Positions 7,028 through 45,650 of a DNA stretch of 64,000 nt are shown one piece after another. Made by a program: the position numbers and the translations under genes. Origin of the DNA: Patescibacteria group bacterium (lineage in GTDB: Bacteria; Bacillota; UBA4882; JAAYXC01); the NCBI GenBank assembly GCA_050260175.1, contig JBLNBS010000053.1, positions 9,815-73,814 on the forward strand. The letters run 5' to 3'. The notes beneath the pieces are model-generated. The model saw only the letters and a list, made by a program, of their open reading frames with translations, did no database searches and had not been told where the DNA came from. Each line of letters begins with the position of its first letter. Position 1 is the stretch's first letter.

Positions 7028-7057
7028 TTGACACGCGCGGCCGGCGCGTGCTAAAAT
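7028..7057 (+). promoter_or_regulatory. Sigma-70-type promoter for the tRNA-Ser genes
   Basis: TTGACA (7028-7033), 18-nt spacer, TAAAAT (7052-7057). Predicted transcription start about 11 nt before the tRNA 5' end. Confidence 0.5.
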
Positions 7058-20212: not shown

Positions 20213-20312
20213 GGTTGGATCCTCCCTTCAGGTAAAAGGGATGTCGCTTGCAGGACGTCTTCCAGGGCGGGCGTAATGTATTGGGCCCCTACACGGGACC
20301 GGCTAAACGTGA

Positions 20313-21218
20313 TTACCCCAGCAGCTTCTCCACGGCCGCGATCGCCTCTTCGTCGCGGTCCGGGAGCTTAAAGCCCGCATGCAACGACCAGGACTCGGTG
20401 TGCGAGACGGTCTCGCCCGGCTCGACGAGGTAGAGCGGGGAGAGCGTCTCCAGCTCGAGGAAGCGCTCGCAGGCGTAGACCTCCACCGAGCAGCCCCCGT
20501 CGGGGTAGACCGCCTCGTCGTCGTAAGCGAACTCCTTGAGAAAGAGGTTGCCGTGGTTGGCATAGGCGCCCCAGCCCGCCGCCACGGACATGCCGTACTT
20601 GACCGGTCCCATGCTCTCGTCCTGGCGCAGGCGCACGAGGCCCCTGCCCCAGGTGATGCGGGGATCGGACATCTCGGTATAAGGCCAGAGCGTCAGGGTA
20701 CGGTTGGGGAGGAGCCCCTCCTCGTCGCGGTGCGTGGTCTGCGGCACCAGGCTGACGCCGCCCGGGGCCATGACCGAGAGGCACCAGACCGACAGCTCCA
20801 CGGGCCAGAGTCCCTCGTTCTTGAGGTAATGCTCCACGATGACCGCGGGTTTTTCCGGGTCCATGGTGAGGACGATGCTTTTTTTGATGCCGCTGCCCGC
20901 TTCCACCCGCTGCTCGGCCCTGAGACCCGCGGCCGTCATCTCCACCGCCACCGGGTCGTTGTCAGGCTGGTAGGTGCGGGCCCTGGTCTCCGGGCTGTGC
21001 CAGAGCCTGTGCCCTCCGTAGTTGACCCACTCCGAGCCCCCGGTCCTCCCCAGGTACTCCGGGAACTCGCAGAACTCGTTCGGCCCGCCCGCAAAGCCGA
21101 GGCGGATCACCCGCGGCCCCACGTCGGCGGTGACGATCAGCTCCAGGCGGCCGTTCGCCACCCGGTAGCAGTTCTGCCACCCCCCGTATGCCACCTTTTC
21201 CACCTTTACGGACATCTC
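20313..21218 (-). CDS. Hypothetical beta-sandwich protein (mutarotase/DUF4432-like?), divergent from the GH31 gene
   Basis: Start MSVKVEKVAYGGW with GGAGGG 5 nt upstream. The tool's upstream extension is unlikely to be coding. Confidence 0.55.
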   Translation of the reverse strand, partial: EMSVKVEKVAYGGWQNCYRVANGRLELIVTADVGPRVIRLGFAGGPNEFCEFPEYLGRTGGSEWVNYGGHRLWHSPETRARTYQPDNDPVAVEMTAAGLRAEQRVEAGSGIKKSIVLTMDPEKPAVIVEHYLKNEGLWPVELSVWCLSVMAPGGVSLVPQTTHRDEEGLLPNRTLTLWPYTEMSDPRITWGRGLVRLRQDESMGPVKYGMSVAAGWGAYANHGNLFLKEFAYDDEAVYPDGGCSVEVYACERFLELETLSPLYLVEPGETVSHTESWSLHAGFKLPDRDEEAIAAVEKLLG

Positions 21219-21340
21219 TTTCCCTCCATCAGGATGCTTTTGAGATCCACCGAGGGATTCGCCACCGGCCCCGGCCTGTCCTGCAGGGACACACGGCCCG
21301 GTGTCGAAATGCTGCCCCGATGCGAAGGGGGATGAAGACC

Positions 21341-23833
21341 ATGCCCGACAGCCCAACCGGGGAAGCCGTCAGCCGCCCGGGCCGCGTGCTCTCTGTCAGC
21401 CAGCTCGGCCGCGGCTGCCTCCTCATTTCCTGTGCCAACGGCTTCATCGCCCTGCGCGCCCTGTCGCCCGAGATCGTGCGCGTCACCCTGGATCCGGAAA
21501 AGCCGCCCGGTGGTGACTCCACCCACGGGATCGCGCCGGGGGCCTGGATGCCGGCGCTTTTGGCCGTGGAAGAGACCCGGGAGGAGATCATGGCCGCCAC
21601 GAGCGCGCTGGTGGTGAGGGTGGACAGGGCCACCGCCGCGCTGGCCTTTACCGATGCCTGCGGCGCGGTCATCAGCGCCGACGATCCCGAGGGCGGCATG
21701 GCCTGGCGCGGGGGAGAGGTTAGCTGCAAAAAAAAGCTCCGGGCGGACGAGCACCTGTATGGCCTGGGCGAACGCACGGGTTTCCTTGACAAGCGGGGCA
21801 AGCGCCACACCTGCTGGAACACGGACGAGAACGTCCACACCCCCATGGTGGACGCCCTCTACCAGTCGCAGCCCTTCGTCATCGGCCTGCACGGCGGCGT
21901 TGCCTACGGCCTCTATTTCGACAACACCTGGCGGTGCGTCTTCGACCTGGGGCGGACCGCGGCTGACGACCTCGTCTACACCGCGGACGGCGGCCGGTTG
22001 GATTACTATTTCATCCTCGGTCCCGGCCTGCCCGAGGTGGTCTCGCGCTACACGCTCCTCACCGGCCGCATGGAGCTGCCACCGCTCTGGGCCCTGGGTT
22101 ACCACCAGTGCCGGTGGAGCTATTACCCGCAGGAGCGGGTCCTGGCGCTGGGCCGCGAGTTCCGGGCGCGGGGCATCCCTTGCGACGCGATCTGGCTCGA
22201 TATCGACTACATGGATTCCTACCGGGTCTTCAGTGTGGACAGGGAGCGTTTTCCGGATTTCCAGGCCATGGCCCGGGAGTTGTCGGCCATGGGGATCAGG
22301 GTCGTGGCCATCGTCGATCCCGGCGTGGTCAGGGACGAAAAAGACGGGGTCTATGCCGAAGGCGCGGAGGGAGGGCATTTCGTCAGGCGCCCGGACGGCA
22401 CGGTATACCGGGGCAAGGTCTGGCCCGGGGAGACGGTCTGGCCGGACTTTTCCCGCTCCGCCACGCGGGCCTGGTGGGCGGATAAGCAGAGGGCCCTCCT
22501 CGACCTGGGCGTGGCCGGGATCTGGAACGACATGAACGAGCCGTCCGACCTGGGGAAATACCGCAAGCCCGAGTATTGGGAAGGCCCCACGCTCGATCCG
22601 GACGCGATCTTTGAGAATGACGGCCGGCCGGCATCCCACGCGGAGCTGCACAACATATACGGCCTGCTCATGGCCGAGGCCACGCGCGCGGGCCTCCTGG
22701 CCGCGCGGCCGGACGAACGCCCGTTCATCCTCACGCGCGCCGGGTTCGCGGGCATCCAGCGCTACGCCGCGGTCTGGACCGGGGACAACCACTCCTGGTG
22801 GGAGCATCTGGAGATGGCCCTGCCCATGCTGGCCAATGCCGGGCTCTCGGGCCTCGCCTTCATCGGCACGGATATTGGGGGCTTCTCCGGGGATTGCGAC
22901 GGCGAGCTGCTGGTGCGCTGGATGCAGTTCGGCGCCCTTTCGCCCTTCTGCCGCAACCACAACTGCGGCGCCGCGGATCAAGAGCCCTGGGCCTTCGGCC
23001 CGCGCTGCGAGGAAATCTGCCGCCGGTACATCGGGCTCCGTTACCGGCTGCTGCCCTATCTCTACGGGGTTTTCCGCGCCTGCGCCGAGACGGGGCTCCC
23101 CGTCCTGCGGCCCCTCGTCCTTGCCTACCAGGAGGACGAGGCCGTCCACGCCCTGCACGACCAGTTCCTCGTGGGACCCGACCTGATGGCCGCCCCGGTC
23201 TGCCGGCCGGGCGCCCGGCACCGCATGGTCTACCTGCCCGCCGGAACCTGGTTCGATTTTTGGACCGGGGAGAAAAAAAGTGGGCCCCTCCACTTTGCAG
23301 CCGAGGCGCCGCTCGAGATCCTCCCGCTCTACGTCCGGGCCGGCGCCGTCATCCCGTTTGCCGCGGAGGCCGCGCACGCGGAGGAGATCCTGGCGCAAAA
23401 GGAATTGGAGCTTCTCATCTATCCCGGCGCGGACGGCGTCTGTGATCTCTACGAGGACGACGGCAAGAGCTTTGCATATCACCGCGGGGTGTACCGCCTG
23501 CGCAAAGTGGACATGACCTGGCGCCCCGATCTGATCCGGGTCGCGATCGCGGAGGCGGCCGGCACTTACGCCACGGCCCGCGAGCGCCTGGCCCTCGTCT
23601 TCAAGTCCCAGGCTACGCCCCCGGCCGCGGTGCTCCTGAACGGGATCGAGCTGCACAAGGAGAAGGCCGGCGCCTTTTGGCGCTACGACCCGGTGGCGGG
23701 CGAGCTTTTGGTGTCCGTGCCCGACGACGGCGCCGCCGCGGTGGTGGAGGTGGGTTTTACGCCGCCTTCTTCTCCCCGGCAGCCCCAATCTCCACGCGGT
23801 CCAGCACCTTGCGCCCCGGGCCGCAGGCCGTGA
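21341..23833 (+). CDS. Glycoside hydrolase family 31 alpha-glucosidase or alpha-xylosidase
   Basis: GIWNDMNEP catalytic-nucleophile motif, WTGDNHSWWEHL and GIPCDAIWLDIDYMD. Start MPDSPTGE (ATG 21341) with a G-rich RBS. Confidence 0.9.
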   Translation: MPDSPTGEAVSRPGRVLSVSQLGRGCLLISCANGFIALRALSPEIVRVTLDPEKPPGGDSTHGIAPGAWMPALLAVEETREEIMAATSALVVRVDRATAALAFTDACGAVISADDPEGGMAWRGGEVSCKKKLRADEHLYGLGERTGFLDKRGKRHTCWNTDENVHTPMVDALYQSQPFVIGLHGGVAYGLYFDNTWRCVFDLGRTAADDLVYTADGGRLDYYFILGPGLPEVVSRYTLLTGRMELPPLWALGYHQCRWSYYPQERVLALGREFRARGIPCDAIWLDIDYMDSYRVFSVDRERFPDFQAMARELSAMGIRVVAIVDPGVVRDEKDGVYAEGAEGGHFVRRPDGTVYRGKVWPGETVWPDFSRSATRAWWADKQRALLDLGVAGIWNDMNEPSDLGKYRKPEYWEGPTLDPDAIFENDGRPASHAELHNIYGLLMAEATRAGLLAARPDERPFILTRAGFAGIQRYAAVWTGDNHSWWEHLEMALPMLANAGLSGLAFIGTDIGGFSGDCDGELLVRWMQFGALSPFCRNHNCGAADQEPWAFGPRCEEICRRYIGLRYRLLPYLYGVFRACAETGLPVLRPLVLAYQEDEAVHALHDQFLVGPDLMAAPVCRPGARHRMVYLPAGTWFDFWTGEKKSGPLHFAAEAPLEILPLYVRAGAVIPFAAEAAHAEEILAQKELELLIYPGADGVCDLYEDDGKSFAYHRGVYRLRKVDMTWRPDLIRVAIAEAAGTYATARERLALVFKSQATPPAAVLLNGIELHKEKAGAFWRYDPVAGELLVSVPDDGAAAVVEVGFTPPSSPRQPQSPRGPAPCAPGRRP

Positions 23834-23995
23834 TCTCCACGGCGTCCCCGTCCGGGTCCAGGATGTCCTCGAGCGGCGCCCCCGCGCTGCCCGTGCAGAT
23901 CTGGTGCAGGAACCGGGCCCCTCTGGCTCCGAGGCTATTCAGCCGCTGTCTTGCTGATCCACGAGCGACGAGCGGCCAGCGACGAGCTGCGAAAT

Positions 23996-26686
23996 CTACC
24001 TCCCCACCTGCTTCCGCAGATCGGCCAGGATCTGCTGCTGGCGCCTGATGGCGTCCTGCTGCGCCCGGATGCTCTGTTCGAGCTCCTCGAGCAGGCGGAC
24101 GAGCTGATCCCGGGTCAGGCCCTCCGTGACAGCCGCCTGGCCGGGGCCAGGACCGGCCGGCGTTGCCGGCGGCGCCGCCCCGGTAAGCTGCGCCAGGGCC
24201 TCCTGCAGGTTGCTGCCGTAGGCGATACTATTCTTGTAGACGAGGACCACGAGTTTCAGCTCGGGCTGCTGGCCCTGCTCGGAGACGATGTAGACCGGCT
24301 CCACGTAGAGAAAGTCCCCGGCAAAGGGCAGGACCAGGAGATTGCCGCGGATGACCGAGGACTGCTGCTGGCCCCAGAGCGTCATGAGCTTTGAGATCTC
24401 GGGGTTCTGGGCGATCCTGCCCTCCACCTGGATGGGGCCGTAGATGATGCGGTCCTTGGGCAGGAGATAGACCAGGACCTGTCCGTAGTTCTCCCCGTCA
24501 CAACGTGCCGCCATCCAGGCGATCATGTTCTTGCGCCTGGGCGCGCTGGGCTTAAGGGGTTCCATGAGCACGAACTCGGCGTCCGCCTCGCCCGGCAGGC
24601 GCAGCATGAGGTAGTAGGGAGCGAGTTCCTCCTCCTGGCCCATGTAGGTCTCGGTGGGCACGGCCCAGGCGTCCTCTTTTTGAAAGAACGTCTTGGTGTC
24701 CCGCATGTGGTAGAGGAGGAGCATGTCGCGCTGGATGGTGAAGAGCCGCTCGGGGTAGCGCAGGTGGTCCCGGATGCTCTGCGGCATCCTGTCCCCGGGT
24801 GTGAAGAGCCTGGGGAAGACGCGCTGCCAGACCCGGATGATCGGATCTTCCCGATCGACCACGTAAAAGGTGGCCGTGCCGTCGTAGGCGTCGACCACGG
24901 CCTTGACCGAGTTCCTGACATAATTGATCCCGGTCCCCGCGTGGCGGGCCGCGTAGGGGTAGTTGGCGCTGTAGGTGTAGGCGTCGATGAGCCAATAAAG
25001 CCGTCCGTCCGCCATCACGAGGTATGGATCGGGATCGTAGTCGAGAAAGGGGGCGAGCTTGCGGACGCGGTCGGCCACGCGGCGGTAGAGCTGCACCTTG
25101 CTCTCGGGCGTGATGTATTCGGAGAGGACGAATTTGAAATCCCCAAAACGCAGGGCAAAGAGCAGACGTACCCAGAACGAGTCAAGCGGCACGCCGTCCT
25201 TGCCGGTGTAATCCGTGGTGATGTTCTGTTCCGACTCTGTGGGGTAGTCGAACTCGTGCAGGGCGTTGGGGGCGATGGTGTACTCGTTCTGGATCTCGCC
25301 GAAATAAACCTGCGGGCGGGTGACGGGGGGGAGGCCGGTGCCCGGGGCCACGCGGGGCGGGATGTCGCTGACCAGAAAGACCGGCTGCCCCTCGGGATTG
25401 ACCTCGCTGACCCCGTTCAGGACCAGCCCGTAGCCGTGCGTGTAGGCGAGATGGAGATTCTCCCAGTTCTGCGCGTTCGCCTGCAGCTGGGACGTGTCCA
25501 GTTCCCTGGCGGCGAGCATGACCTCGCGCTTTTGGCCGCCGATGACGTAGCGGTCGATGTCCATGTCGTTAAAGGTGTAATACTGGCGCAGGGCCTGCAG
25601 TTGCTCGTAGGAGAGCTGCAGGGTCCGGAAATCCCAGAGCCGCATGTTGGTGATGGTGGGACTGTCCTGGCTGAGCGCTTCGGCGGTGCGGCCGAGCGGA
25701 TAATCCCTGGTCACAAAACGGTCGAGCCCGAACGCCTTGCGCGTCATCTCGATGTGCCGGGCGAGGTACGGCTTTTCCCTGATGTACCTGTTCGGCCCCA
25801 CGACCAGGGCGTTGACCACGCCCGGGGCGATGCTCCCCAGCACAAAGGAGGAGGCCAAAAGCAGCGCGACGCCGCCCAGGAGCAGTCTGGCGCCGCGGCG
25901 GAACAGCCCCACGCCAAGGACAGCCACGCACCCCGCGGCGATCCAGGAGAGGGCGGTATAGACCGGCAGGCGGACGTGGGCCGCCGTAAAGTCCACGCCG
26001 GTCACGAGCCCCGTCTCGGCGAGGAGCAGGCCCTGCCGCGCCAGGGCGTAGTCCCAGATCTTGGCGGCAAGGAGGAGGGCCGCCAGGATGGTGAGATGGA
26101 TCTTGGCCTGCGACCGGAGGATGAAAGTCCTGCCCTGGCGCCAGAAGGCCCGGGAAGCCCAGTAAACGAAGCCCGTGCCCAGGAGGGCCATCCAGAGCAG
26201 GGTTTGCAGCAGACGGTTGAGGCTCCGCCAGATCGGGAACTGGAAGAGATAGTAACTCACGTCGCGATGCAGGATCGGGTCGGCGACGCCCATGCGGACG
26301 GGATGCAGGAACTGCTGCACCGCAGCCCAGCCCGGGTTGAGCGCCGAACCGATCAGCAGGGCGAGGAGAGCGCTGACGGCGAGATTGGCCCAGCCCCAGG
26401 GGATCCTGTCAAGTTGCAACTGGCTCCAGACGCCGCCTTGCTCCTCCGCGGGGTGCGGGCCTCTCAGTGCCCGCAGCGCCAGGCTGAAATTGAGGAAGAA
26501 GAAGGTAAAGGTTACGGCCCACGCCAGGAGCCGCAGGATCCAGCCGGTGGCGAAGGCCGTCCAGAAGACCGCGGTCAAACCCATGCTCCGGAACCAGAGC
26601 CAGTCCGTGAAGAAACTCGTCCCGGCCATCAGGAGCACGAGGACCAGCACCGCCAGTCCGACCGCGAGCCAGATTACCTTGCGCAT
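23996..26686 (-). CDS. UPF0182-family large membrane protein
   Basis: 896 aa. N-terminal multi-TM region with a TDWLWF motif, followed by a large extracytoplasmic domain. Confidence 0.8.
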   Translation of the reverse strand: MRKVIWLAVGLAVLVLVLLMAGTSFFTDWLWFRSMGLTAVFWTAFATGWILRLLAWAVTFTFFFLNFSLALRALRGPHPAEEQGGVWSQLQLDRIPWGWANLAVSALLALLIGSALNPGWAAVQQFLHPVRMGVADPILHRDVSYYLFQFPIWRSLNRLLQTLLWMALLGTGFVYWASRAFWRQGRTFILRSQAKIHLTILAALLLAAKIWDYALARQGLLLAETGLVTGVDFTAAHVRLPVYTALSWIAAGCVAVLGVGLFRRGARLLLGGVALLLASSFVLGSIAPGVVNALVVGPNRYIREKPYLARHIEMTRKAFGLDRFVTRDYPLGRTAEALSQDSPTITNMRLWDFRTLQLSYEQLQALRQYYTFNDMDIDRYVIGGQKREVMLAARELDTSQLQANAQNWENLHLAYTHGYGLVLNGVSEVNPEGQPVFLVSDIPPRVAPGTGLPPVTRPQVYFGEIQNEYTIAPNALHEFDYPTESEQNITTDYTGKDGVPLDSFWVRLLFALRFGDFKFVLSEYITPESKVQLYRRVADRVRKLAPFLDYDPDPYLVMADGRLYWLIDAYTYSANYPYAARHAGTGINYVRNSVKAVVDAYDGTATFYVVDREDPIIRVWQRVFPRLFTPGDRMPQSIRDHLRYPERLFTIQRDMLLLYHMRDTKTFFQKEDAWAVPTETYMGQEEELAPYYLMLRLPGEADAEFVLMEPLKPSAPRRKNMIAWMAARCDGENYGQVLVYLLPKDRIIYGPIQVEGRIAQNPEISKLMTLWGQQQSSVIRGNLLVLPFAGDFLYVEPVYIVSEQGQQPELKLVVLVYKNSIAYGSNLQEALAQLTGAAPPATPAGPGPGQAAVTEGLTRDQLVRLLEELEQSIRAQQDAIRRQQQILADLRKQVGR

Positions 26687-26795
26687 CCGCGCCCGCCTCC
26701 CGTCCGGGCGCCCGCCTCGGACGCGGGCACCCGTTGTATCCGCTTTTCACACCGTTTTTGGAAGAGATGACGGATGGATGTTTTGGATTCGCCTC

Positions 26796-26825
26796 TTGAC
26801 CGAACACTAGTTCGCATGATATGAT
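26796..26825 (+). promoter_or_regulatory. Canonical sigma-70 promoter: TTGACC, 18-nt spacer, TATGAT
   Basis: Located 30 nt upstream of a GAGGAGG RBS and ATG 26857. Lies in the region divergent from the UPF0182 gene. Confidence 0.55.
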
Positions 26826-26856
26826 AGCGGTAGAAAGCATGCGAGGAGGATCGGTC

Positions 26857-27009
26857 ATGCACGAACGGGAGAGACTGGACAGGCTCTATACCGCTTTTGC
26901 CGAGGCATTGCCCGCGGACAGGGCGAGGATCCTGGCCGGCGTCGCCGGCGTTCTGTTGCGGCCGGCTGCCGGCGGCGGCGCCATACCGGCACCGCGGCTC
27001 ACCTGTTGA
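26857..27009 (+). CDS. Small ORF (50 aa), hypothetical
   Basis: Strong promoter and RBS GAGGAGG 6 nt before the ATG. Its 3' end overlaps the 3' end of the convergent PP-loop gene by 11 nt. Confidence 0.4.
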   Translation: MHERERLDRLYTAFAEALPADRARILAGVAGVLLRPAAGGGAIPAPRLTC

Positions 27010-28027
27010 CCCGCCAGGGTCCGATCAGCCCGGGCGGCACGGGATGCACGCTCAAAACCTCCTTGACGGGGCGGCCGCCTGCGGCGGAGAGGATCTTGAC
27101 CCGCGCCGCGGCACCGTCCGGCAGGTCCGCGTATCGCGCGGTCAGGCCGGCCGCGGCGCGCAGGTCCTCCTCGCCGGGCGCCCCGAGGACCAGGGTCAGA
27201 GGACCAGGCACGCCCGCCGCGTGCAGGAGCCGGCGGTCCAGGGGCCTCCGGCGGAAATGCCGGGCGAGCGCCGCGTTTTCCTCTTGGTTGCGGCCCACGA
27301 TGACGGATGCCCGCGCGCTTGGGCGAAAGTGCCTTCCCAGGGCGGCCAGGGGGATATCCTCCAGGGGCACGCGCCCCAAGAGATCGAGCAGGTTGCGGTA
27401 GCGGTCCGCGTACTCGCGGTACGTCAGGAGGCAGCCGCCGGCCGGCGCGGGATAGCTGAGCCCCCTGGCGCGCGCCATGGCCTCCTGCACCGTGCGCCCC
27501 CGTCCGGCCAGGTCCAGCAGGCGTTCGCGATCCACCCAGCCGCGCTGCTCGGGAATGGTCGGCGGCAGGAGGCGGGCGGAAAGAGGGCGCAGGACTAGAC
27601 CTTTCAGTCCGGCCTCGCGGTCGGTGATGAAAAGCGCTTCCCGCCTCTGCGACATGGGCCTCTGCCCCACGACCTCGCCCGTGGCCAAGAAGGACGCGCC
27701 GACGGCCGGCATCAGCCCGGCCGCTTTTTTTAACTGGTAGATCCGGCAGTCCTGGCAGGGATTGAAGTTCTTGCCATGCCCAAACTTGGGGTGGGCCACG
27801 ATCTCCGCCAGTTCCTCGCCGGGGGTCAGGATGTGCGGGGTCACGCCAAGTTGCGCCGCGGCGGCCCGGATCTCATCCAACCCTCCGCCCTTGGCGCTCT
27901 TGATGAAAGGCAGCGCCAGGTGGACCGCCTCGACCTCCACCCCCTGCTCCTGCAGGAGGACGATGGCCAGGAGGCTGTCCAGCCCGCCAGAGAAAAGCAC
28001 GAGCGCCTTGGGCCTCTCCGCTTGCAT
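26999..28027 (-). CDS. PP-loop superfamily ATP pyrophosphatase (tRNA-thiolation, LarE, ThiI or MnmA-like)
   Basis: KALVLFSGGLDS PP-loop and a downstream CQDCR motif. Start ATG 28027. The tool's longer N-terminus would translate the intergenic repeat. Confidence 0.7.
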   Translation of the reverse strand: MQAERPKALVLFSGGLDSLLAIVLLQEQGVEVEAVHLALPFIKSAKGGGLDEIRAAAAQLGVTPHILTPGEELAEIVAHPKFGHGKNFNPCQDCRIYQLKKAAGLMPAVGASFLATGEVVGQRPMSQRREALFITDREAGLKGLVLRPLSARLLPPTIPEQRGWVDRERLLDLAGRGRTVQEAMARARGLSYPAPAGGCLLTYREYADRYRNLLDLLGRVPLEDIPLAALGRHFRPSARASVIVGRNQEENAALARHFRRRPLDRRLLHAAGVPGPLTLVLGAPGEEDLRAAAGLTARYADLPDGAAARVKILSAAGGRPVKEVLSVHPVPPGLIGPWRVNR

Positions 28028-28040
28028 GCCGGGTCTTCCT

Positions 28041-28243
28041 TCCCATCCCCCGGAGGGGGCGACTGTCGTGTTTCCAAGAAACTTCCTCGAACATCCCTGC
28101 ACGGCCCAGAGAGGACCGTTCGGGCGGTGTCTCGGGTTTACCCCCTATCCCCCGGAGGGGCAACCGTCGTGTGTTTCCAAGAGACTTGCTCGAACATCCC
28201 TTGCTCCCTCCGGGAGATAGAGGGTTTCTTCTTCGCGAGACCC
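28041..28243. repeat. Tandem intergenic repeat of about 100 bp (units at about 28041 and 28141); its tail TTGCTCCCTCCGGGAGATAGAGGG-TCTTCTTCG is also present at 15778-15824
   Basis: ATCCCCCGGAGGGG, GTCGTGT(G)TTTCCAAGA-ACTT-CTCGAACATCCC repeated twice. Contains C5-GGA-G5 and CTCCC-TCC-GGGAG mini-hairpins. Confidence 0.55.
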
Positions 28244-28267
28244 AAGTCATTCTCCCGGATACTTTAC

Positions 28268-29554
28268 TCACGGTGACGCCGGGCTATTGGCACGGGCAAA
28301 ATCCGCCATCTCCACCACCCGGCCGGTCAGGCGTGACTCCTCGGCGGCAAAGGCCATGAGGTGGCTCTGCACCGAGACGGCCGCCGAGGTCAGCGCGGCC
28401 TCGGGCCGGCCCTCCCGCAGGGCCTCGGCAAAGGCGCGCATCAGGCCTCCGTCCCCGCCCGCATGCCCGCCTGCGGCGCCGGCCAAGGGAACGGTCTCCT
28501 CCCCGCCGCCGAAAACGCGCAGGACGATCTCGCCCTTTTCCATGTGGCCCGCGATCTCGCCGGCCGTGCCCATGATCTTGATCGTGCGCGAGATCTCCCG
28601 CGTCAATCCGCACATCGTGAACGCCGCCGTCGCGCCGTTCGTGAATTCGAGCACCGCGACCTGGTGGTCCACCACGTCGTTGTCGCAGGCAAAGACGCAG
28701 CGCCCGTAAGGCCCCTCACGCAGGGCCGCGGTCCTGGCCGCAAGCGAGGTGTCCAGGCTGATGACCGAGACGGGCCAGCCCGTGTTTTCTCCGAGGTAAA
28801 TGCGGCGCGCGGAGAAGGGGCAGTCCGGCTCGGCCCGGCAGCCGTCCAAGCAGCGCGCGGCCGCGCCGGGAGGCGCGTTCTCACGCTTGAAAAAAGAGAG
28901 GGAGCCGAATGAGGCCAGGCGCGCGCAGTCGGCGCCCGCCAGCCAGAGGAGGATGTCCATGTCGTGGCAGCTCTTTGCCAGGATCATGGGATTCGACTCA
29001 TCGCGCCGGCGCCAGTTGCCCCGGACGTAGCTGTGGGCCATGTGCCAGTAGCCCACGTTCTCGTTGTGCTGGATGGAAACGACCCGCCCGATGCGCCCCT
29101 CGTCGAGGAGCTTTTTGATGGCGGCAAAAAACGGGGTGTAGCGCAGTACGTGGCAGATCATGAGCAGGCGCCCTGCACGGGCCGCCGCCCCGGCCATGGC
29201 GACACACTCCGCCGCGGTCGGCGCCATAGGTTTTTCCAAGAGCACGCCGTAGCCCTGGGCGAGGGCGGCCATGACGGGATCGTAATGCATCCTGTCCTGG
29301 GTGGCGACGATCAAGCCCTCGGCCAGCCGGGGCCGGGAGAGGAGATCCTCCCAGGAGGCAAAGGTCATTTCGGGTGGTATGCCGTGCCGGGCCGCGAACG
29401 AATCCCGCCGGTCGCGGCGCGGCTCGGCCACGGCCGTAAAGCGGAACTCCCCGGGGTGGCCGAGGACGTACTCCCCGTACGCGTCGGCGCCGCGGTTGCC
29501 CGCTCCCAGCAGGGCCAGGGTCACCGGGCCTCTTTCCGCGCCCATGGTCATCAA
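28268..29554 (-). CDS. Gfo/Idh/MocA-family NAD(P)-dependent oxidoreductase
   Basis: N-terminal Rossmann fold (LALLGAGNRGADAY) and a C-terminal alpha/beta domain. 428 aa. Confidence 0.85.
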   Translation of the reverse strand: MMTMGAERGPVTLALLGAGNRGADAYGEYVLGHPGEFRFTAVAEPRRDRRDSFAARHGIPPEMTFASWEDLLSRPRLAEGLIVATQDRMHYDPVMAALAQGYGVLLEKPMAPTAAECVAMAGAAARAGRLLMICHVLRYTPFFAAIKKLLDEGRIGRVVSIQHNENVGYWHMAHSYVRGNWRRRDESNPMILAKSCHDMDILLWLAGADCARLASFGSLSFFKRENAPPGAAARCLDGCRAEPDCPFSARRIYLGENTGWPVSVISLDTSLAARTAALREGPYGRCVFACDNDVVDHQVAVLEFTNGATAAFTMCGLTREISRTIKIMGTAGEIAGHMEKGEIVLRVFGGGEETVPLAGAAGGHAGGDGGLMRAFAEALREGRPEAALTSAAVSVQSHLMAFAAEESRLTGRVVEMADFARANSPASP

Positions 29555-29918
29555 CTCCTATCCCAGATGTTTCTTTCCAGAGCATAACACAGCTCCCCGC
29601 CCCGGGCAAGGAGGCGCGAGGGGAGGCTTCGTTCCGCCCCGACCCGGCCGGGATAAAGACGGGGAAAATGGAATATGGTGTATCGTTCCACATTCAACAA
29701 CGACGAGGATTTACTCGGTTTTCATCTAGAACGGTACGAATTTGATCGCTGGCAGGCAGGATTATTGCCGGGGCCGGAGAACAAGATAGATGCTTTGATT
29801 GCGCCGCTACACCAGGATCCTGCATGTCCGCGTCATCAGGTGGAACGTTTTGGGACCGGGAAGGCTGCCGATCCCACCGGCATGGAATCCCTGCACCCGA
29901 TGCATCGAGGAAAGAGGT

Positions 29919-30962
29919 ATGAGCGTGGGCCGCATCACCATCCGCGAGATCGCCAAATCCGCCAATGTCTCGCCTTCCACGGTCTCCAACGTGATCAACA
30001 ACAACGAGAGACACGTCAGCCCCAAAACAGCCGAGCGCGTCCGCAGGCTCATCGAGGAGTCCGGCTTTACCCCGGATACCGTCGGGCGGAGCCTGCGGCG
30101 GCGCAGCACGGATTCGATCGGCGTGATCATCCTCAACGTTTCCGCCGGCCAGATCGCGGAACCCTGGATCGCGGTGCTCCTGTCGGGCATCTCCTCGGTG
30201 ATGAGCGCCTGCGGCAAGACCATCGTGGTGGACCTCTGGCAGACTGGAGCCGACGATCGCCAGCGATATCAGCGCATCTTTCATGGGAATCTCTTTGACG
30301 GGGCCATCCTGATTGGACCCAAGCGGAATGAGTGGATCCTTTCCGAGTTGGTCAGGGAGGGTTATCCCTTCGTGGCCATGGAATGGTCCGCGCCCGGTTA
30401 TAGTGTGAACAGCGTCTGCGCCAACGACTTCAACGGAGCATATATGGCCGTTACCCACCTCATCGAACGGGGGCACCGGCGCATAGGCATGATCAACGGC
30501 GACACCGGTTTCTTCTCAGCCGTGGAAAGACTCAACGGCTACAACCGGGCCCTGGCCGATCACGGCTTGGCCGCCCCCCCTGAACTGGCGGTCGTCGGCG
30601 AGTTTTCGGAGAGCGACGGATTCAAGCACGCCGTGGCCTTGATGGCCAAGAGCGATCCCCCGACCGCCATCTTTGCCGGGGATGACCTGCTGGCGATCGG
30701 CGCGATCAACGGCCTGCGCCACGCGGGCCTGGAAATACCGCGCGATGTCTCGGTGGTCGGTTTCGACGATATTCCCATGGCCAGGTACCTGACGCCGCCC
30801 CTGACCACCGTCAGGCTGCCCATGTGGGACATGGGCGTGGCCGCGGCCGAGCAGTTGCAGCGGATCCTCGCGCCGGGCAAGCGCCAGGCCCGGCAGATCA
30901 TCTTCGACGTGGAGTTGCTCGTGCGGGGTTCCACGGCTCAGGCGCCGGCCGGAAAGGCTTGA
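29919..30962 (+). CDS. LacI-family transcriptional regulator
   Basis: HTH ITIREIAKSANVSPSTVSNVIN and a periplasmic-binding-protein-like sugar-binding domain. Start ATG 29919 with RBS. Confidence 0.85.
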   Translation: MSVGRITIREIAKSANVSPSTVSNVINNNERHVSPKTAERVRRLIEESGFTPDTVGRSLRRRSTDSIGVIILNVSAGQIAEPWIAVLLSGISSVMSACGKTIVVDLWQTGADDRQRYQRIFHGNLFDGAILIGPKRNEWILSELVREGYPFVAMEWSAPGYSVNSVCANDFNGAYMAVTHLIERGHRRIGMINGDTGFFSAVERLNGYNRALADHGLAAPPELAVVGEFSESDGFKHAVALMAKSDPPTAIFAGDDLLAIGAINGLRHAGLEIPRDVSVVGFDDIPMARYLTPPLTTVRLPMWDMGVAAAEQLQRILAPGKRQARQIIFDVELLVRGSTAQAPAGKA

Positions 30963-31084
30963 CGATCCGCGCGTGCTGACGGCCATCCTGGCTGCCGCCG
31001 CGACGGGCGTGGCGGCCGGACCCAGTGCCGCGATGGCCGCGAACCGGGTAAAGGCATATATTCTCGCACTCCCGGCTGGGGGGG

Positions 31085-32014
31085 ATGGGCGTGGGCAAGG
31101 CCTTAATGGCTGGCTTGACACCGGCCCGGCGGCGCCGGAGAGGCCTCAATCGCACCGAACTCAGGTGGATCTTGCTCTTCATTGGCCCGACGGCGGCCGG
31201 CCTCATCCTCGGCTCGCTGGGTCCTGTCGTGGCCTCGCTTTGCATTAGTTTTACAAAATGGGATGTGATCGTGCCCGCGATCTACGTCGGCGGCAGGAAC
31301 TACGTCGAGCTGTTTCGCGATCCCCTCTTTACCAGGAGCATGCTCAACACCGTCTATTACACGGCGGTTTCCGTACCCGTGGGCACTTTTGCCTCGCTTC
31401 TCATCGCCCTGGCCATGAACCAAAAGGTCAAGGGCATCCTCGCCTACCGCACCGCTTTCTTCGCTCCCGTGGTCACCTCGGTGACCGCCATCGCCTTGGT
31501 CTGGTCCTGGATCTACAGCCCCGACTTCGGCCTCCTCAATTACGTCCTGGGCTGGTTCGGGGTCAGGGGGCCTGACTGGCTGTCCAGCACCGTCTGGGCC
31601 ATGCCGGCGGTCATCATCACCAGCATTTGGTGGGGCCTGGGCTACGACATGGTGATCTTCCTCGCGGGGCTGCAGGGCATCCCCGACATCTACTACGAGG
31701 CGGCCAAGATAGACGGAGCCGGAGCTTTCAGGCAGTTCACCCACGTGACCCTGCCTCTCATCACGCCCAGCATCTTCTTTGTCCTCGTCATGTCCCTCAT
31801 CGGCTCGCTGCAGGTCTTCGAGCAAACCTACATCATGACCAAGGGCGGCCCCGCCTACGCCACCACCACCATCTTCTACTACCTCTACCTTAACGGCTTC
31901 AAGTACTTTAAGATGGGCTACGCCTCGGCCATGTCCTACATCCTGTTCATCCTCATCTTCGTTTTGACCTGGATCTCCTTCAAGCTGCAGGATCGCTGGG
32001 TCGTCTACCAATGA
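31085..32014 (+). CDS. Sugar ABC transporter permease (MalF/UgpA-like). Start ATG 31085 or 31106.
   Basis: Six TM helices and the EAAKIDGAGAFRQFTHVTLPL EAA loop. Confidence 0.85.
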   Translation: MGVGKALMAGLTPARRRRRGLNRTELRWILLFIGPTAAGLILGSLGPVVASLCISFTKWDVIVPAIYVGGRNYVELFRDPLFTRSMLNTVYYTAVSVPVGTFASLLIALAMNQKVKGILAYRTAFFAPVVTSVTAIALVWSWIYSPDFGLLNYVLGWFGVRGPDWLSSTVWAMPAVIITSIWWGLGYDMVIFLAGLQGIPDIYYEAAKIDGAGAFRQFTHVTLPLITPSIFFVLVMSLIGSLQVFEQTYIMTKGGPAYATTTIFYYLYLNGFKYFKMGYASAMSYILFILIFVLTWISFKLQDRWVVYQ

Positions 32015-32026
32015 GGGGGTGATCCG

Positions 32027-32899
32027 ATGGGGATTCTACCATATGCGGCAGTGTCAAGGCGCGAACGACGCGATCGGGCGCGGCCGGCGCGGATCGTAAT
32101 CACCCATCTCGCCTTGGCCGCCGGGGCTTTCGTCATGATCGTGCCGTTTCTCTGGATGGCCTCCACCTCGCTCAAATCGCCGGACGAGGTCTTCGCCTTC
32201 CCGCCGGTCTGGATTCCGCGCCGGCTCATGTGGAGGAACTTCGCCGAGATGTGGAACGCCCTGCCGTTCGGCTTGTTCTTTTTGAACAGCACGAAACTGG
32301 CCGTGCTCAACACCGCGGGCACGCTCCTTAGTTGCTCCATGGCGGCGTTCGGCTTTTCCGTGCTGCGTTTCCGGGGGCGCAACGCGCTTTTCTTGATCCT
32401 GCTGGCCACCATGATGATCCCCTATCCCGTGGTCATGATCCCCACCTTCATCCTCTTCAAGTACATGCGCATGATCGACACGCATTACCCGCTCTGGCTC
32501 TTCAGCTTCCTCGGCGGCGCCTACGGGACCTTTCTCCTGCGGCAGTTCTTTCTCACCATCCCTCACGAACTTGTGGAAAGCGCCCGCATCGACGGGGCAA
32601 ACCCATGGCAGATCTACGCCCGTATCTTCCTGCCCTTGTCAGGACCCGCCCTGGCCACCCTGGGTATCTTCACCTTCATGAGCAGCTGGAACAACCTGCT
32701 CGGCCCCCTGATCTACCTGAACACCCTGGAAAAACTCACGCTCACCACGGGTCTGAGTTTCTTCCAATTCCAGTATACCGGGCGCTGGACGCTGATGATG
32801 GCCGGCGCCATGGTGAGCATCGTCCCGATCCTGGCGGTTTATGTCTTTGCCCAGCGTTACTTCATCAAGGGGATTGCCCTGACCGGCATCAAGGCATAA
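32027..32899 (+). CDS. Sugar ABC transporter permease (MalG/UgpE-like)
   Basis: EAA motif ESARIDGANPWQIYARIFLPL. RBS GAGGGGGTGA. Confidence 0.85.
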   Translation: MGILPYAAVSRRERRDRARPARIVITHLALAAGAFVMIVPFLWMASTSLKSPDEVFAFPPVWIPRRLMWRNFAEMWNALPFGLFFLNSTKLAVLNTAGTLLSCSMAAFGFSVLRFRGRNALFLILLATMMIPYPVVMIPTFILFKYMRMIDTHYPLWLFSFLGGAYGTFLLRQFFLTIPHELVESARIDGANPWQIYARIFLPLSGPALATLGIFTFMSSWNNLLGPLIYLNTLEKLTLTTGLSFFQFQYTGRWTLMMAGAMVSIVPILAVYVFAQRYFIKGIALTGIKA

Positions 32900-32985
32900 G
32901 CCGGACGGCTTTTTGGGGGGAGGTGGTTCGCCTCGCCGCTTTGGCCTGCGAATCCTGAACGAAAAACTTCAAAGGGGGTAGGAAC

Positions 32986-34239
32986 GTGAAGCGGTACCTG
33001 ATTCCAGGTTTGCTACTCCTGGCCCTGGCCGTCAGCGCCGTCTCGGTCCTGGGCGCCAAGGCCAACCTGAATTTCATGATGTGGGGCAGCCCGGATGAAC
33101 TCAAAGTCTACAAGCAGATCGTCGCCTCCTTCGAAAAGGCAAACAAGGACGTAAAGGTCAAGGTGACGGTGGTGGACTGGGATACCTACTGGAGCAAGCT
33201 CCAGGCCCAACTGGCCGGGGGCAATCCGCCGGATGTCTTCGCCATGGATGCGCCGCTCTACCCCGACTATTACTCCCGCGGCGTCCTGCTCAATCTTTCC
33301 CCGTTCATCGACAAGGAAAAGGGATTCCTGAGCGACTTCTATCCCGTCACGCTTTTGGCGTACAAGAAACCCGACGGGTATTTCGGCCTGCCCCGCGACT
33401 TCCAGACCATCGTCCTCTATTACAATAAGGATCGCTTCAAGGCGGCCGGGCTCAAGGAACCCGACGGGACCTGGACCTGGGAGACCTTCCGGCAGGCCTT
33501 GAAGAAACTCACCGTCGACGCCAACAAGGACGGCAAGCCGGAAAAATGGGGTGCCTGGCTGGACACCAGCGACATGGAGCTCATCTGGTCCTCGCTCGTC
33601 TGGCAAAACGGCGGTGAGATCCTCAACAAGGACTATACCAAATGCCTGCTTGACCAGGCTCCGGCCGTTGAGGCGCTGCAGTTCCTGGCGGATCTGATCT
33701 GGAAGGACAGGGTCATACCGGACGCCGGCCGCGTCTCCCAGTACGGCGACTCTTTCAAATCCGGCATCTCGGCCATGACCACCACGGGGCACTGGATGGT
33801 GCCGGAATACTCGCAGATCACGTCCTTTGCGTGGGACGTGGCGCCCCTGCCCAAGGGCAAGAACCGCGCCACGTCCGTCAACTGCGCGGGGCTCGTCATC
33901 GCCAAGGCCAGCAAGATCAAGGACGCATCCTGGCGATTCGTCAAGTACGTCTGCGGACCCGTGGGCCAGACCGAACTGACCAAGCTCGGTTTCGCCTGTC
34001 CGGTCCTGAAAAAGATCGCCAATAGCGACGTCTACCTAAAGCAGGCGACTCCGATCGCGCACGAGATCTTTATCGACGCTCTCCGATACGCCCACATCAA
34101 ACCCAGTTTCGAGGGTTTCGACCAGTTCAACACGACCCTCAATCAGGGCCTGGATCTGATCTGGTTGAACAAGAAGACGGCCCAGGCCGAGCTTGCGGTC
34201 CTCGTCCCCGAACTGAACAAGCTGCTCGCGGGCAAATAA
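32986..34239 (+). CDS. Extracellular solute-binding protein (family 1, sugar). Cleavable signal peptide without a lipobox cysteine.
   Basis: GTG start with AAGGGGGTAGG. MKRYLIPGLLLLALAVSAVSVLGAKA. Confidence 0.85.
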   Translation: MKRYLIPGLLLLALAVSAVSVLGAKANLNFMMWGSPDELKVYKQIVASFEKANKDVKVKVTVVDWDTYWSKLQAQLAGGNPPDVFAMDAPLYPDYYSRGVLLNLSPFIDKEKGFLSDFYPVTLLAYKKPDGYFGLPRDFQTIVLYYNKDRFKAAGLKEPDGTWTWETFRQALKKLTVDANKDGKPEKWGAWLDTSDMELIWSSLVWQNGGEILNKDYTKCLLDQAPAVEALQFLADLIWKDRVIPDAGRVSQYGDSFKSGISAMTTTGHWMVPEYSQITSFAWDVAPLPKGKNRATSVNCAGLVIAKASKIKDASWRFVKYVCGPVGQTELTKLGFACPVLKKIANSDVYLKQATPIAHEIFIDALRYAHIKPSFEGFDQFNTTLNQGLDLIWLNKKTAQAELAVLVPELNKLLAGK

Positions 34240-45315: not shown

Positions 45316-45650
45316 TCCTCCCCTCCCACTATGTACAAACCCGTGTTTAGCAGGACTTTAGCTCGGGGGCGCGAACTATGCTGGCGTAACAAAGCGAGGA
45401 GCAAGCCGCTCCTCTCGCAGCGCTCGACCGCCTGCCAAGGCTCCGGTCACTGAGCCATGACGGGCTTGTATGCAGGGACGGGGAGAGAAAGGAGGTGAAT
45501 CCGGAAGATTTTTGCGTGCTTCCCAAGAGGAGGCGGATCCCGCGATCCGGCGGGCCGGGAAACGTAACTTGGCGTTGTTTCGCGGACGCGGACCGCCGGG
45601 CCGGCTCCTCCAAAGGCTCAACGCACAGAGCAAGAATCCAAGGAGGAAAC

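What the first reader, a model, noticed from the sequence alone, without database searches (positions are those of the whole stretch)
26796..27009. Near-consensus promoter and strong RBS driving a 50-aa ORF that runs into the 3' end of the convergent PP-loop gene
TTGACC-18-TATGAT followed by GAGGAGG 6 nt before the ATG is the strongest expression signal in the window, yet it serves only a 50-aa ORF (MHERERLDRLYTAFAEALPADRARILAGVAGVLLRPAAGGGAIPAPRLTC). Its stop codon lies 11 nt inside the 3' end of the oppositely oriented PP-loop ATPase gene. The transcript would therefore read antisense into that gene. This could be a genuine small protein, a cis-antisense regulator of the PP-loop gene, or both. 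It is not in the tool's list of larger genes and would be missed by standard annotation.
Basis: seen in the sequence. Interest (0 to 1): 0.5.

Follow-up and report, generated by a model that had tools for sequence, protein, structure and literature searches.

The report
Conserved small protein gene, LexA-type promoter
The 50-codon reading frame is a real, conserved but unannotated small-protein gene, and its strong promoter carries a conserved sequence that looks like a binding site for LexA, the DNA-damage repressor, so it is probably switched on by DNA damage.

Summary
TTGACC-18-TATGAT (with TGn), GAGGAGG, the ATG at 26857, a 50-aa ORF and an 11-nt overlap with the convergent PP-loop gene are all present. 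Two details are off: the SD-ATG spacing is 7 nt, not 6, and the promoter is not the best in the window.

The ORF is a genuine gene. An exhaustive protein search and neighbourhood mining found homologues of 43-55 aa in seven lineages. They share a 34-residue core (RLDRLYxxFxEAxPxDRxKVLAGxAGLLL) and have variable tails. dN/dS is about 0.2 while synonymous sites are near saturation. AlphaFold2 predicts a helical hairpin with a disordered tail. There is no transmembrane segment and no match in Pfam, NCBIfam or PHROGs.

The new point is the promoter. In every lineage the spacer holds C[A/G]AAC-N4-GTT[C/T]G, the LexA (Cheo) box of Firmicutes and Clostridia. The window's copy is a perfect CGAAC-N4-GTTCG. 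Most relatives also have a second, weaker box before the SD.

I read it as an SOS-repressed small cytosolic protein of unknown target. LexA binding is inferred, not shown. The gene is always convergent with the ThiI-like/NFACT-R gene. However, the overlap varies from +46 nt to an 82-nt gap, and three sister lineages lack the gene. Antisense control is therefore at most a secondary effect.

The parts
26796..26801 (+). -35 hexamer TTGACC
   Evidence: It is invariant in all 8 aligned promoters.
26801..26814 (+). Operator O1, CGAACACTAGTTCG. This is a perfect CGAAC-N4-GTTCG palindrome (LexA/Cheo-box type) filling the promoter spacer and sharing its first base with the -35 hexamer.
   Evidence: It is the only perfect match in the 64-kb window and the only full GAAC-N4-GTTY site in intergenic DNA. 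C[AG]AAC-N4-GTT[CT]G is conserved in all seven lineages, while the upstream DNA and the N4 bases vary. The composite TTGACCRAACNNNNGTTYG occurs once in each locus that carries the small gene and nowhere else in the 178 loci held at the time of that count. It is 12-13 of 14 identical to tested C. difficile uvrB/recA/lexA operators.
26817..26825 (+). Extended -10 element, TGaTATGAT
   Evidence: TAT.AT is invariant in the alignment.
26832..26845 (+). Position of a second operator (O2). In the window it is degenerate (AGAAAGCATGCGAG; 4 of 8 core bases).
   Evidence: Relatives carry RGAAC-N4-nTTCG at this position, 31-35 nt from O1 measured start to start. This matches the GAACnnnnnTTC form used for clostridial LexA boxes. 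It is weak in the window itself.
26843..26849 (+). Shine-Dalgarno sequence GAGGAGG, 7 nt before the ATG
   Evidence: GGAGG-like SD sequences sit at the same place in relatives.
26857..27009 (+). Small-protein gene (50 aa plus stop). Codons 1-34 (26857-26958) are the conserved helical-hairpin core. Codons 35-50 are a variable Pro/Ala/Gly/Arg-rich tail.
   Evidence: Homologues were found by exhaustive phmmer and confirmed by profile searches. dN/dS is 0.20-0.25. The core has GC1/GC2/GC3 of 0.68/0.47/0.79, like the window's genes. AlphaFold2 predicts helices 2-16 and 19-34, with pLDDT 88-95 over residues 1-30.
26999..28102 (-). Convergent neighbour: a ThiI-like PP-loop ATPase fused to NFACT-R_2 (DUF814). 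The true start is probably the ATG at 28027 (342 aa).
   Evidence: Pfam matches NFACT-R_2 at 1.9e-16, plus tRNA_Me_trans and ThiI. The 98% relative is called at 342 aa. This is the only neighbour shared by all loci with the small gene.
27703..27733 (+). Possible end of the small-gene transcript: the hairpin CGGCCGGCATCAGCCCGGCCG followed by CTTTTTTT, lying antisense inside the PP-loop gene.
   Evidence: It is the top-ranked terminator-like site in 20000-34000. The T-run is made from the rare codons TTA AAA AAA (TTA is 1% of Leu codons, AAA 24% of Lys). It is shared only with the 98% relative L001 and is not at the homologous place in L165, L174, L175 or L177.

Best explanation
This is a stand-alone gene for a 50-aa basic cytosolic protein. 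The protein is a 34-residue helical hairpin with a disordered tail. It is transcribed from a strong sigma-A promoter that is most likely kept shut by the SOS repressor LexA.

Proposed mechanism:
1. A LexA dimer on O1 (CGAAC-N4-GTTCG, between -35 and -10) blocks RNA polymerase. In most relatives a second dimer on O2, over the transcription start and 5' UTR about three helical turns away, would add to this.
2. After DNA damage, RecA-stimulated LexA self-cleavage frees the promoter.
3. The extended -10 and the 7-nt SD then give a burst of the small protein.
4. The protein probably acts by binding a larger protein, as other small checkpoint proteins do. Its target is unknown.
5. Transcription has no terminator before the convergent ThiI-like gene, so it must run into that gene's 3' end. 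This may lower its expression as a side effect.

Shown: the gene is real and under purifying selection, and the promoter and operator-like palindrome are conserved and found only with this gene.

Inferred: LexA is the binding factor, the gene is induced by damage, the protein acts by binding another protein, and any antisense effect.

My confidence by part: real protein-coding gene about 0.9; LexA/SOS control about 0.55-0.6; a functionally relevant antisense effect about 0.2-0.25.
For: Gene reality:
- Exhaustive phmmer found three small homologues, confirmed by profile.
- Further members are in L174, L175/176 (uncalled) and L177.
- The alignment shows a conserved core of residues 1-34.
- Pairwise dN/dS is 0.20-0.25 with pS about 0.6. 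Variable columns by codon position are 17/12/26.
- Codon-position GC resembles real genes.
- AlphaFold2 predicts a confident two-helix hairpin.

Promoter and operator:
- In the alignment of 8 promoters, conservation starts exactly at TTGACC and runs through [AG]AAC-N4-GTT[CT]G to TATnAT. Nothing is conserved upstream.
- The window's box is a perfect CGAAC-N4-GTTCG and is unique in 64 kb.
- The composite motif co-occurs one-to-one with the small gene across the 178 loci held at the time of that count.
- GAAC-N4-GTTC is the reported LexA motif of Firmicutes and Actinobacteria (PMC4951493).
- Clostridial lexA and recA operators are GAAC-N4-GTTT (PMC4234289). O1 is 10-13 of 14 identical to those tested operators.
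- The 5' neighbour differs in every lineage: UPF0182, MFS, ECF sigma, or a 290-aa unknown protein. The factor that reads the conserved operator must therefore be encoded elsewhere, as a global regulator would be.
- The best-named homologues of the neighbouring gene are from Bacillota/Clostridia.
Against: - No lexA, recA or other core SOS gene is in the window or in any related contig. I therefore could not check that the same motif sits upstream of lexA or recA in this lineage.
- uvrC is in the window (40218-42050) and has no such box.
- In six of seven lineages the left half-site is CAAAC rather than CGAAC. In L165 both halves deviate (6 of 8 core bases).
- O2 is degenerate in the window itself.
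- The taxon is not established. One related contig is labelled Bacteroidota by its submitter, a phylum I recall using a different LexA motif.
- The protein has no detectable relationship to any known SOS effector. The fold search gave nothing significant.
Confidence: 0.55

Rival explanations
1. The main product is an antisense transcript. The strong promoter exists to drive convergent transcription into the ThiI-like/NFACT-R gene. This would silence the gene by transcriptional interference or RNA duplex formation, and the ORF would be incidental or secondary (a dual-function RNA).
For: - The small gene is convergent with the PP-loop gene in all seven lineages, although the neighbour on its other side differs each time.
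- The coding regions overlap in five lineages.
- No terminator-like site lies between the ORF stop and the PP-loop coding region in any lineage.
- In the window a strong terminator-like hairpin built from rare codons lies 700 nt inside the PP-loop gene on the antisense strand.
Against: - Selection acts on the amino-acid sequence (dN/dS about 0.2), so the peptide is a functional product.
- The overlap is not conserved; there are gaps of 52 and 82 nt in L175 and L177.
- The antisense terminator is found only in the window and its 98% relative.
- PP-loop orthologues at 66-71% identity (L171, L173, L178) and the 52% outgroup lack the small gene.
- The upstream GFO/IDH/MocA-PP-loop pair is kept about as often, so the adjacency may be plain inherited synteny.
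- The 5' part of the transcript shows no unusual RNA structure (z = -0.89).
Confidence: 0.2
2. It is a real small-protein gene, but the conserved palindrome is the operator of a repressor other than LexA. That could be another global regulator or the small protein itself, so the gene would have nothing to do with DNA damage.
For: - LexA binding is inferred from motif similarity alone.
- CAAAC left half-sites deviate from the canonical GAAC.
- There is no SOS gene context.
- The window's uvrC lacks the motif.
Against: - The 5-4-5 geometry and sequence are those of the Gram-positive LexA box.
- Identity to tested clostridial lexA, recA and uvrB operators is 10-13 of 14.
- No regulator gene is consistently adjacent.
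- From my own knowledge, no other widespread Bacillota regulator recognises GAAC-N4-GTTC. The CtsR, HrcA, Rex, Fur/PerR and NrdR consensus sequences do not fit.
- A 34-residue helical hairpin with no helix-turn-helix or ribbon-helix-helix signature is an unlikely sequence-specific autoregulator.
Confidence: 0.25
3. Chance: a fortuitous promoter-like site followed by one of the many open frames that a 66% G+C genome produces.
For: - One promoter-like hit in 14 kb is within chance expectation.
- High-GC DNA is full of long spurious ORFs.
- The tail of the ORF has non-coding-like codon-position GC.
Against: - Homologues with the same start, the same SD position and the same promoter occur in seven lineages whose synonymous sites are saturated.
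- There is a profile E-value gap between family members (5e-17 or better for six lineages, 1.3e-09 for the divergent L177) and the best non-member (0.18 or worse).
Confidence: 0.03

Closest known systems
SOS-induced small checkpoint proteins of Gram-positive bacteria (B. subtilis YneA, S. aureus SosA; also Caulobacter SidA)
   Same: They are short proteins expressed from promoters carrying LexA boxes. They are silent until DNA damage and then made in a burst (PMC6851548, PMC6051672, listed; YneA details are from my own knowledge).
   Different: Those proteins are membrane-anchored; YneA also has a LysM domain, and yneA and sosA sit next to lexA. Here there is no transmembrane segment (maximum KD19 1.56, longest uncharged run 12 residues or fewer), no Pfam domain and no lexA nearby. 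There is no sequence similarity.
Sda, the 46-aa replication/DNA-damage checkpoint inhibitor of sporulation kinases in Bacillus
   Same: Similar size and architecture: a monomeric two-helix hairpin that acts by binding a larger protein (PMC10730256). Like this protein, it is cytosolic and made in response to replication or DNA stress. The disordered C-terminal tail of Sda is from my own knowledge.
   Different: The sda promoter is controlled through DnaA boxes, not LexA. There is no Pfam Sda hit, and Foldseek did not retrieve Sda. This is an analogy only.
SOS-induced type I toxins and dual-function or antisense loci (E. coli tisB/istR, dinQ/agrB, symE; excludon-type convergent pairs)
   Same: They are LexA-controlled very small ORFs in loci where overlapping antisense transcription matters. 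This locus likewise has convergent transcription into a neighbouring gene.
   Different: Type I toxins are hydrophobic membrane peptides controlled by a dedicated antisense sRNA. This protein is basic, amphipathic and not membrane-spanning. No sRNA family was detected. The partner here is a full-length enzyme gene.
ThiI+DUF814 (NFACT-R) PP-loop enzymes, the neighbouring gene
   Same: The convergent gene has the domain pair that Burroughs and Aravind proposed as the tRNA 4-thiouridine synthase in organisms lacking THUMP-ThiI (PMC4075521; Pfam result).
   Different: That paper does not describe an associated small protein. The small gene is absent next to this enzyme outside one narrow clade.

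Membership tests
LexA (SOS) regulon of Firmicutes/Clostridia type | A GAAC-N4-GTT[C/T] palindrome in or next to the promoter | tested here: met
   The window has CGAACACTAGTTCG at 26801-26814, inside the spacer. The site is conserved in seven lineages with 6-8 of 8 core bases, and is 10-13 of 14 identical to tested C. difficile operators.
LexA (SOS) regulon of Firmicutes/Clostridia type | The same motif upstream of lexA, recA or uvrB in the same genome | not testable with these tools
   No lexA or recA is in the window or the fetched loci. The window's uvrC has no box, but uvrC is not a universal SOS gene.
LexA (SOS) regulon of Firmicutes/Clostridia type | LexA binding and DNA-damage induction | not testable with these tools
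   This needs EMSA or ChIP, and expression data with and without mitomycin C or UV.
YneA/SosA/SidA-type SOS cell-division inhibitors | A membrane anchor (one transmembrane helix) | tested here: not met
   The maximum 19-residue Kyte-Doolittle mean is 0.85-1.56. The longest run without a charged residue is 6-12 aa. L164 and L174 carry an Asp inside the hydrophobic helix.
YneA/SosA/SidA-type SOS cell-division inhibitors | A LysM domain (YneA), or divergent placement next to lexA | tested here: not met
   There is no Pfam domain at E up to 10 in seven members. No lexA is in the window. The 5' neighbours are UPF0182, MFS, ECF sigma or an unknown protein.
Sda (PF08970) sporulation-kinase inhibitor | Sequence or profile similarity to Sda | tested here: not met
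   There is no Pfam hit.
Sda (PF08970) sporulation-kinase inhibitor | A two-helix hairpin of about 35 residues with a flexible C-terminal tail | tested here: met
   AlphaFold2 predicts helices 2-16 and 19-34 with pLDDT 88-95, and a tail with pLDDT 51-69. This is a resemblance in shape only.
Type I toxin-antitoxin (SOS-induced, TisB/DinQ-like) | A hydrophobic membrane-inserting peptide with a dedicated antisense sRNA | tested here: not met
   The protein is not hydrophobic enough and has net charge +2 to +4. There is no Rfam hit in 26300-27400 at E up to 10 beyond chance-level matches.
cis-antisense / excludon-type regulation of the convergent gene | A transcript that extends across the convergent gene, conserved among relatives | tested here: inconclusive
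   No terminator lies before the PP-loop coding region, and the coding regions overlap in five of seven lineages. However, the overlap and the antisense terminator are not conserved. Transcript ends need RNA-seq.

The most novel reading that the evidence does not exclude
The locus may be a DNA-damage switch acting on tRNA thiolation. SOS induction would fire a strong promoter whose transcript runs antisense into the ThiI-type s4U synthase gene. Its 50-aa product might also bind that enzyme or its tRNA substrate. Together these would lower tRNA 4-thiouridine after UV or DNA damage. From my own knowledge, s4U8 is the classical near-UV photosensor of bacterial tRNA. If this reading is right, it would be a previously unknown link between the SOS response and the tRNA photosensor.
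Probability: 0.08. Interest if true: 0.7.

Novelty: new member of a known kind. Interest (0 to 1): 0.42.

Why it matters
The locus adds an unannotated, conserved small-protein family from an uncultured high-GC, probably Bacillota, lineage. The family has no Pfam, NCBIfam or PHROG model, and a gene caller missed it in at least one lineage.

It also gives a specific, testable regulatory hypothesis. A canonical LexA-type operator is embedded in a near-consensus promoter, which would make this gene a lineage-specific SOS effector. Such effectors are the least conserved and least understood part of SOS regulons. They include checkpoint proteins, toxins and RecA modulators, and they are usually found only by experiment. 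Here comparative sequence analysis alone picks one out.

It is also a useful example for annotation. In 66% G+C DNA, a 50-codon ORF cannot be told from noise without its promoter, its SD and its homologues.

Tried and rejected
- Known RNA element. Rfam on 26300-27400 at E up to 10 gave only chance-level hits, and the whole window at gathering score gave only two tRNAs. Folding of 26832-27140 is unremarkable (z = -0.89). Rejected.
- Longer 62-aa form starting at 26821. That ATG lies inside the -10 box, and all homologues align from the ATG at 26857 with an SD upstream. Rejected.
- Remnant of a larger gene. The exhaustive search found only proteins of similar length. The two long hits (P0003, P0006) are low-complexity repeats. 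Rejected.
- Homologues beside distant PP-loop genes. tblastn and a core HMM over six-frame translations of the 161 loci then held found none outside the clade. There were also none in viral contigs.
- Closest UPF0182 relative. L131 (59% identity) has no synteny and no small ORF.
- Organism and SOS context. The window's PP-loop protein is not on record. The genome-contig scan gave only relatives at 48% identity or less. There is no lexA or recA in the window. Pfam annotation of about 45 window genes found only uvrC as a repair gene, and it has no box.
- Fold and sequence matches for the protein. Foldseek against PDB gave nothing below E = 4. The profile against PDB sequences gave only a 17-residue match to the class A beta-lactamase omega-loop at E = 0.09, which I take as chance. 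Sda was not related by hhalign.
- Conserved antisense terminator in the PP-loop gene. It is present only in the window and L001. The weak hairpins in L165 and L174 sit on the NPCQDC codons and are by-products of coding.
- MerR-type promoter (palindrome in an overlong spacer). The spacers are 17-18 nt, not 19-20, and most have an extended -10. Rejected.
- 156-nt extra segment in L001. It is not a repeat of anything in the window or the loci.

Full report
**1. The observation**

- TTGACC at 26796-26801, an 18-nt spacer, and TATGAT at 26820-26825 preceded by TG (an extended -10);
- GAGGAGG at 26843-26849;
- ATG at 26857 and a 50-codon frame ending at 27009;
- the PP-loop gene on the minus strand ending at 26999, so the two coding regions overlap by 11 nt.

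Two details need correcting. The SD-ATG distance is 7 nt, not 6. The promoter is not the best in the window: a scan of all 64 kb on both strands gives eight promoter-like sites, six of them at 10/12 or better, and the tRNA-Ser promoter at 7028 scores 11/12. One such site per 14 kb is within chance, so the single sequence proves nothing. The case rests on comparison with relatives.

**2. The ORF is a real gene**

The word-indexed search found only a 98% identical 50-aa protein, P0001. Its contig L001 has the same gene order.

An exhaustive phmmer scan of 1.8 billion representatives found three more small proteins with 56-67% identity: P0002 (47 aa), P0004 (43 aa) and P0005 (55 aa). All align from residue 2-3.

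I then took PP-loop orthologues at 66-72% identity and searched their contigs with a core HMM. This added:
- a TTG-initiated member in L174;
- an uncalled member in L175/L176;
- a more divergent member in L177.

That makes seven lineages. They share the core M-x4-RLDRLYxxFxEAxPxDRxKVLAGxAGLLL and have unrelated tails rich in Pro, Ala and Arg.

Evidence for coding selection over the 34-codon core:
- pS is about 0.6, close to saturation, and pN is about 0.22-0.26, giving dN/dS of 0.20-0.25.
- Variable columns by codon position are 17/12/26.
- Conserved Arg and Leu residues are written with different codons in different lineages.
- The core has the codon-position GC of the window's genes, 0.68/0.47/0.79.

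Family members score E of 5e-17 or better against the core HMM in six lineages, and 1.3e-09 for the divergent L177. The best non-member scores 0.18 or worse.

**3. The protein**

- AlphaFold2 with the five-sequence alignment gives two helices (2-16 and 19-34) with pLDDT 88-95, and a low-confidence tail.
- No member has a membrane-spanning segment, and the net charge is +2 to +4.
- There are no hits in Pfam at E up to 10, in NCBIfam, or in viral contigs, and only a chance-level match (E = 0.24) in PHROGs.
- Foldseek against the PDB gives nothing below E = 4.
- The profile search of PDB sequences gives only a 17-residue resemblance to the class A beta-lactamase omega-loop at E = 0.09, which I treat as chance.

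**4. The promoter carries a conserved operator**

I aligned the 90-110 nt upstream of the start codon in eight loci. There is no conservation until the -35 hexamer. From there a block runs TTGACC-[A/G]AAC-N4-GTT[C/T]G-(t)at(g)n-TATnAT.

The spacer of a promoter is normally free to vary. Here ten of its positions are held while synonymous sites in the adjacent gene have turned over.

The block contains a 5-4-5 palindrome:
- The window's copy, CGAACACTAGTTCG (26801-26814), is a perfect CGAAC-N4-GTTCG.
- It is the only perfect copy in the window.
- It is the only full GAAC-N4-GTTY site in intergenic DNA.
- The composite TTGACCRAACNNNNGTTYG occurs exactly once in every locus that has the small gene and in none of the other 164 loci held at the time of that count.

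[quoted passage not shown] In Clostridia the lexA and recA operators read GAAC-N4-GTTT (PMC4234289). Read on the other strand, the relatives' CAAAC-N4-GTTCG is exactly that form. Across lineages O1 is 10-13 of 14 identical to the C. difficile operators that were tested for LexA binding. In L177 it is CGAACAAATGTTTG, against GGAACAAATGTTTG at lexA and AGAACAAATGTTTG at recA.

Five of the seven lineages have a second site, RGAAC-N4-nTTCG, between the -10 and the SD, 32-35 nt from the first (6-7 of 8 core bases). At that position L177 is weaker (6 of 8, with its left half reading GAAA) and the window's copy is degenerate (4 of 8).

The gene on the promoter side differs in every lineage (UPF0182, MFS transporter, ECF sigma factor, a 290-aa unknown). 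The factor that reads the operator must therefore be encoded elsewhere, which fits a global repressor.

**5. What I could not do**

- No lexA, recA or other core SOS gene lies in the window or the fetched contigs.
- The window's uvrC has no box.
- The taxon is not established. The best-named homologues of the neighbouring gene are Bacillota/Clostridia, but one related contig is labelled Bacteroidota by its submitter.

LexA control is therefore an inference. I put it at about 0.55-0.6.

**6. The convergent neighbour and the antisense idea**

The neighbour is a ThiI-like PP-loop domain fused to NFACT-R_2/DUF814. Burroughs and Aravind proposed this architecture as the tRNA 4-thiouridine synthase of organisms without THUMP-ThiI (PMC4075521).

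In favour of a link:
- The small gene is tail-to-tail with this gene in all seven lineages.
- No terminator-like site lies before the PP-loop coding region, so read-through into its 3' end is likely.
- In the window a strong hairpin plus T7 at 27703-27733 lies antisense within the PP-loop gene. It is made by the rare codons TTA AAA AAA and would give a transcript of about 900 nt.

Against antisense regulation as the reason the locus exists:
- The overlap ranges from +46 nt to gaps of 52 and 82 nt.
- The overlapping tails are the least conserved parts of both proteins.
- The antisense terminator is shared only with the 98% relative.
- Three sister lineages (L171/172, L173, L178) and the 52% outgroup (L179-181) keep the enzyme gene without the small gene.
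- The GFO/IDH/MocA gene on the other side of the enzyme gene is kept about as often, so inherited synteny is enough to explain the adjacency.

I keep antisense interference as a possible side effect, at about 0.2.

**7. Comparison with known systems**

In logic it resembles the SOS-induced small checkpoint proteins YneA, SosA and SidA. It fails their defining features: no membrane anchor, no LysM domain and no placement next to lexA.

In shape it resembles Sda, a 46-aa helical hairpin that inhibits sporulation kinases (PMC10730256). But sda is controlled through DnaA boxes, and there is no sequence or profile similarity.

It is not a type I toxin.

I file it as a new small-protein family that is probably a lineage-specific member of a LexA regulon. 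It is a new member of a known kind, not a new kind.

**8. Verdict**

- The small-protein reading is supported.
- The antisense reading is neither proven nor needed.
- The main addition is the conserved LexA-type operator.
- Interest is moderate. A specialist would find this a neat, testable SOS candidate in an uncultured lineage rather than a surprise.

Noticed in passing
window 27703-27733 (+), inside the PP-loop gene: This is the best terminator-like hairpin of the 20-34 kb region (7 G-C pairs followed by T7). It lies on the antisense strand of a coding region, and its T-run is written with the rare codons TTA AAA AAA (TTA is 1% of Leu codons). It is shared only with the 98% relative L001.
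   Followed up: partly
window 26769/26770 versus L001 2823-2978: The 98% relative has 156 extra bases between the UPF0182 start and the small-gene promoter. The segment is unique, with no copy in the window or any locus, so it is an indel of unknown origin just upstream of the -35.
   Followed up: partly
window 26932-26949 (+), inside the small ORF: The codons for the conserved AGVAG motif (GCCGGCGTCGCCGGC) form a perfect hairpin. It is followed by T-rich rare codons (GTT CTG TTG). The scan flags this as terminator-like in the window and, at the same place, in L175. It is probably a by-product of GCC/GGC codons, but it could attenuate transcription.
   Followed up: no
small protein residues 5-21 (window 26869-26919): The family profile gives a weak match (E = 0.09) to the omega-loop segment RLDRxxxxLNEAxPGD of class A beta-lactamases (TEM, SHV, PenP). 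This is probably chance.
   Followed up: partly
window 24826-24905 (-): ARAGORN calls a tRNA-Lys(ttt) inside the UPF0182 coding region. Rfam at gathering score does not find it, so it is probably a false positive.
   Followed up: no
window 26999-28102 (-): The mechanical ORF starts at GTG 28102 (367 aa). The 98% relative is called at 342 aa, and orthologues align from about residue 30. The true start is probably the ATG at 28027.
   Followed up: partly
L171 11300-12400 (also L172): In this sister lineage, the position downstream of the PP-loop gene where the small gene would lie is occupied by about 1.1 kb of very AT-rich DNA that looks foreign. It sits a few genes from a Cas6 gene.
   Followed up: no
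window 40218-42050 (+): This is uvrC (GIY-YIG, UvrC RNase H and HhH domains). It starts only 30 nt after a DUF2207 membrane-protein gene and has no LexA-type box upstream. It is the only DNA-repair gene I found in the window.
   Followed up: partly
window 45337-45348 (+): An intergenic AAACCCGTGTTT (AAAC-N4-GTTT) lies about 150 nt upstream of a 382-aa gene with no Pfam match. No promoter-like hexamers surround it, so it may be chance.
   Followed up: no
window 28268-29554 (-) and L165, L173, L174, L175: A GFO/IDH/MocA-family oxidoreductase gene sits directly upstream of the ThiI-like/NFACT-R gene in five lineages. This may be an operon linking the two.
   Followed up: no
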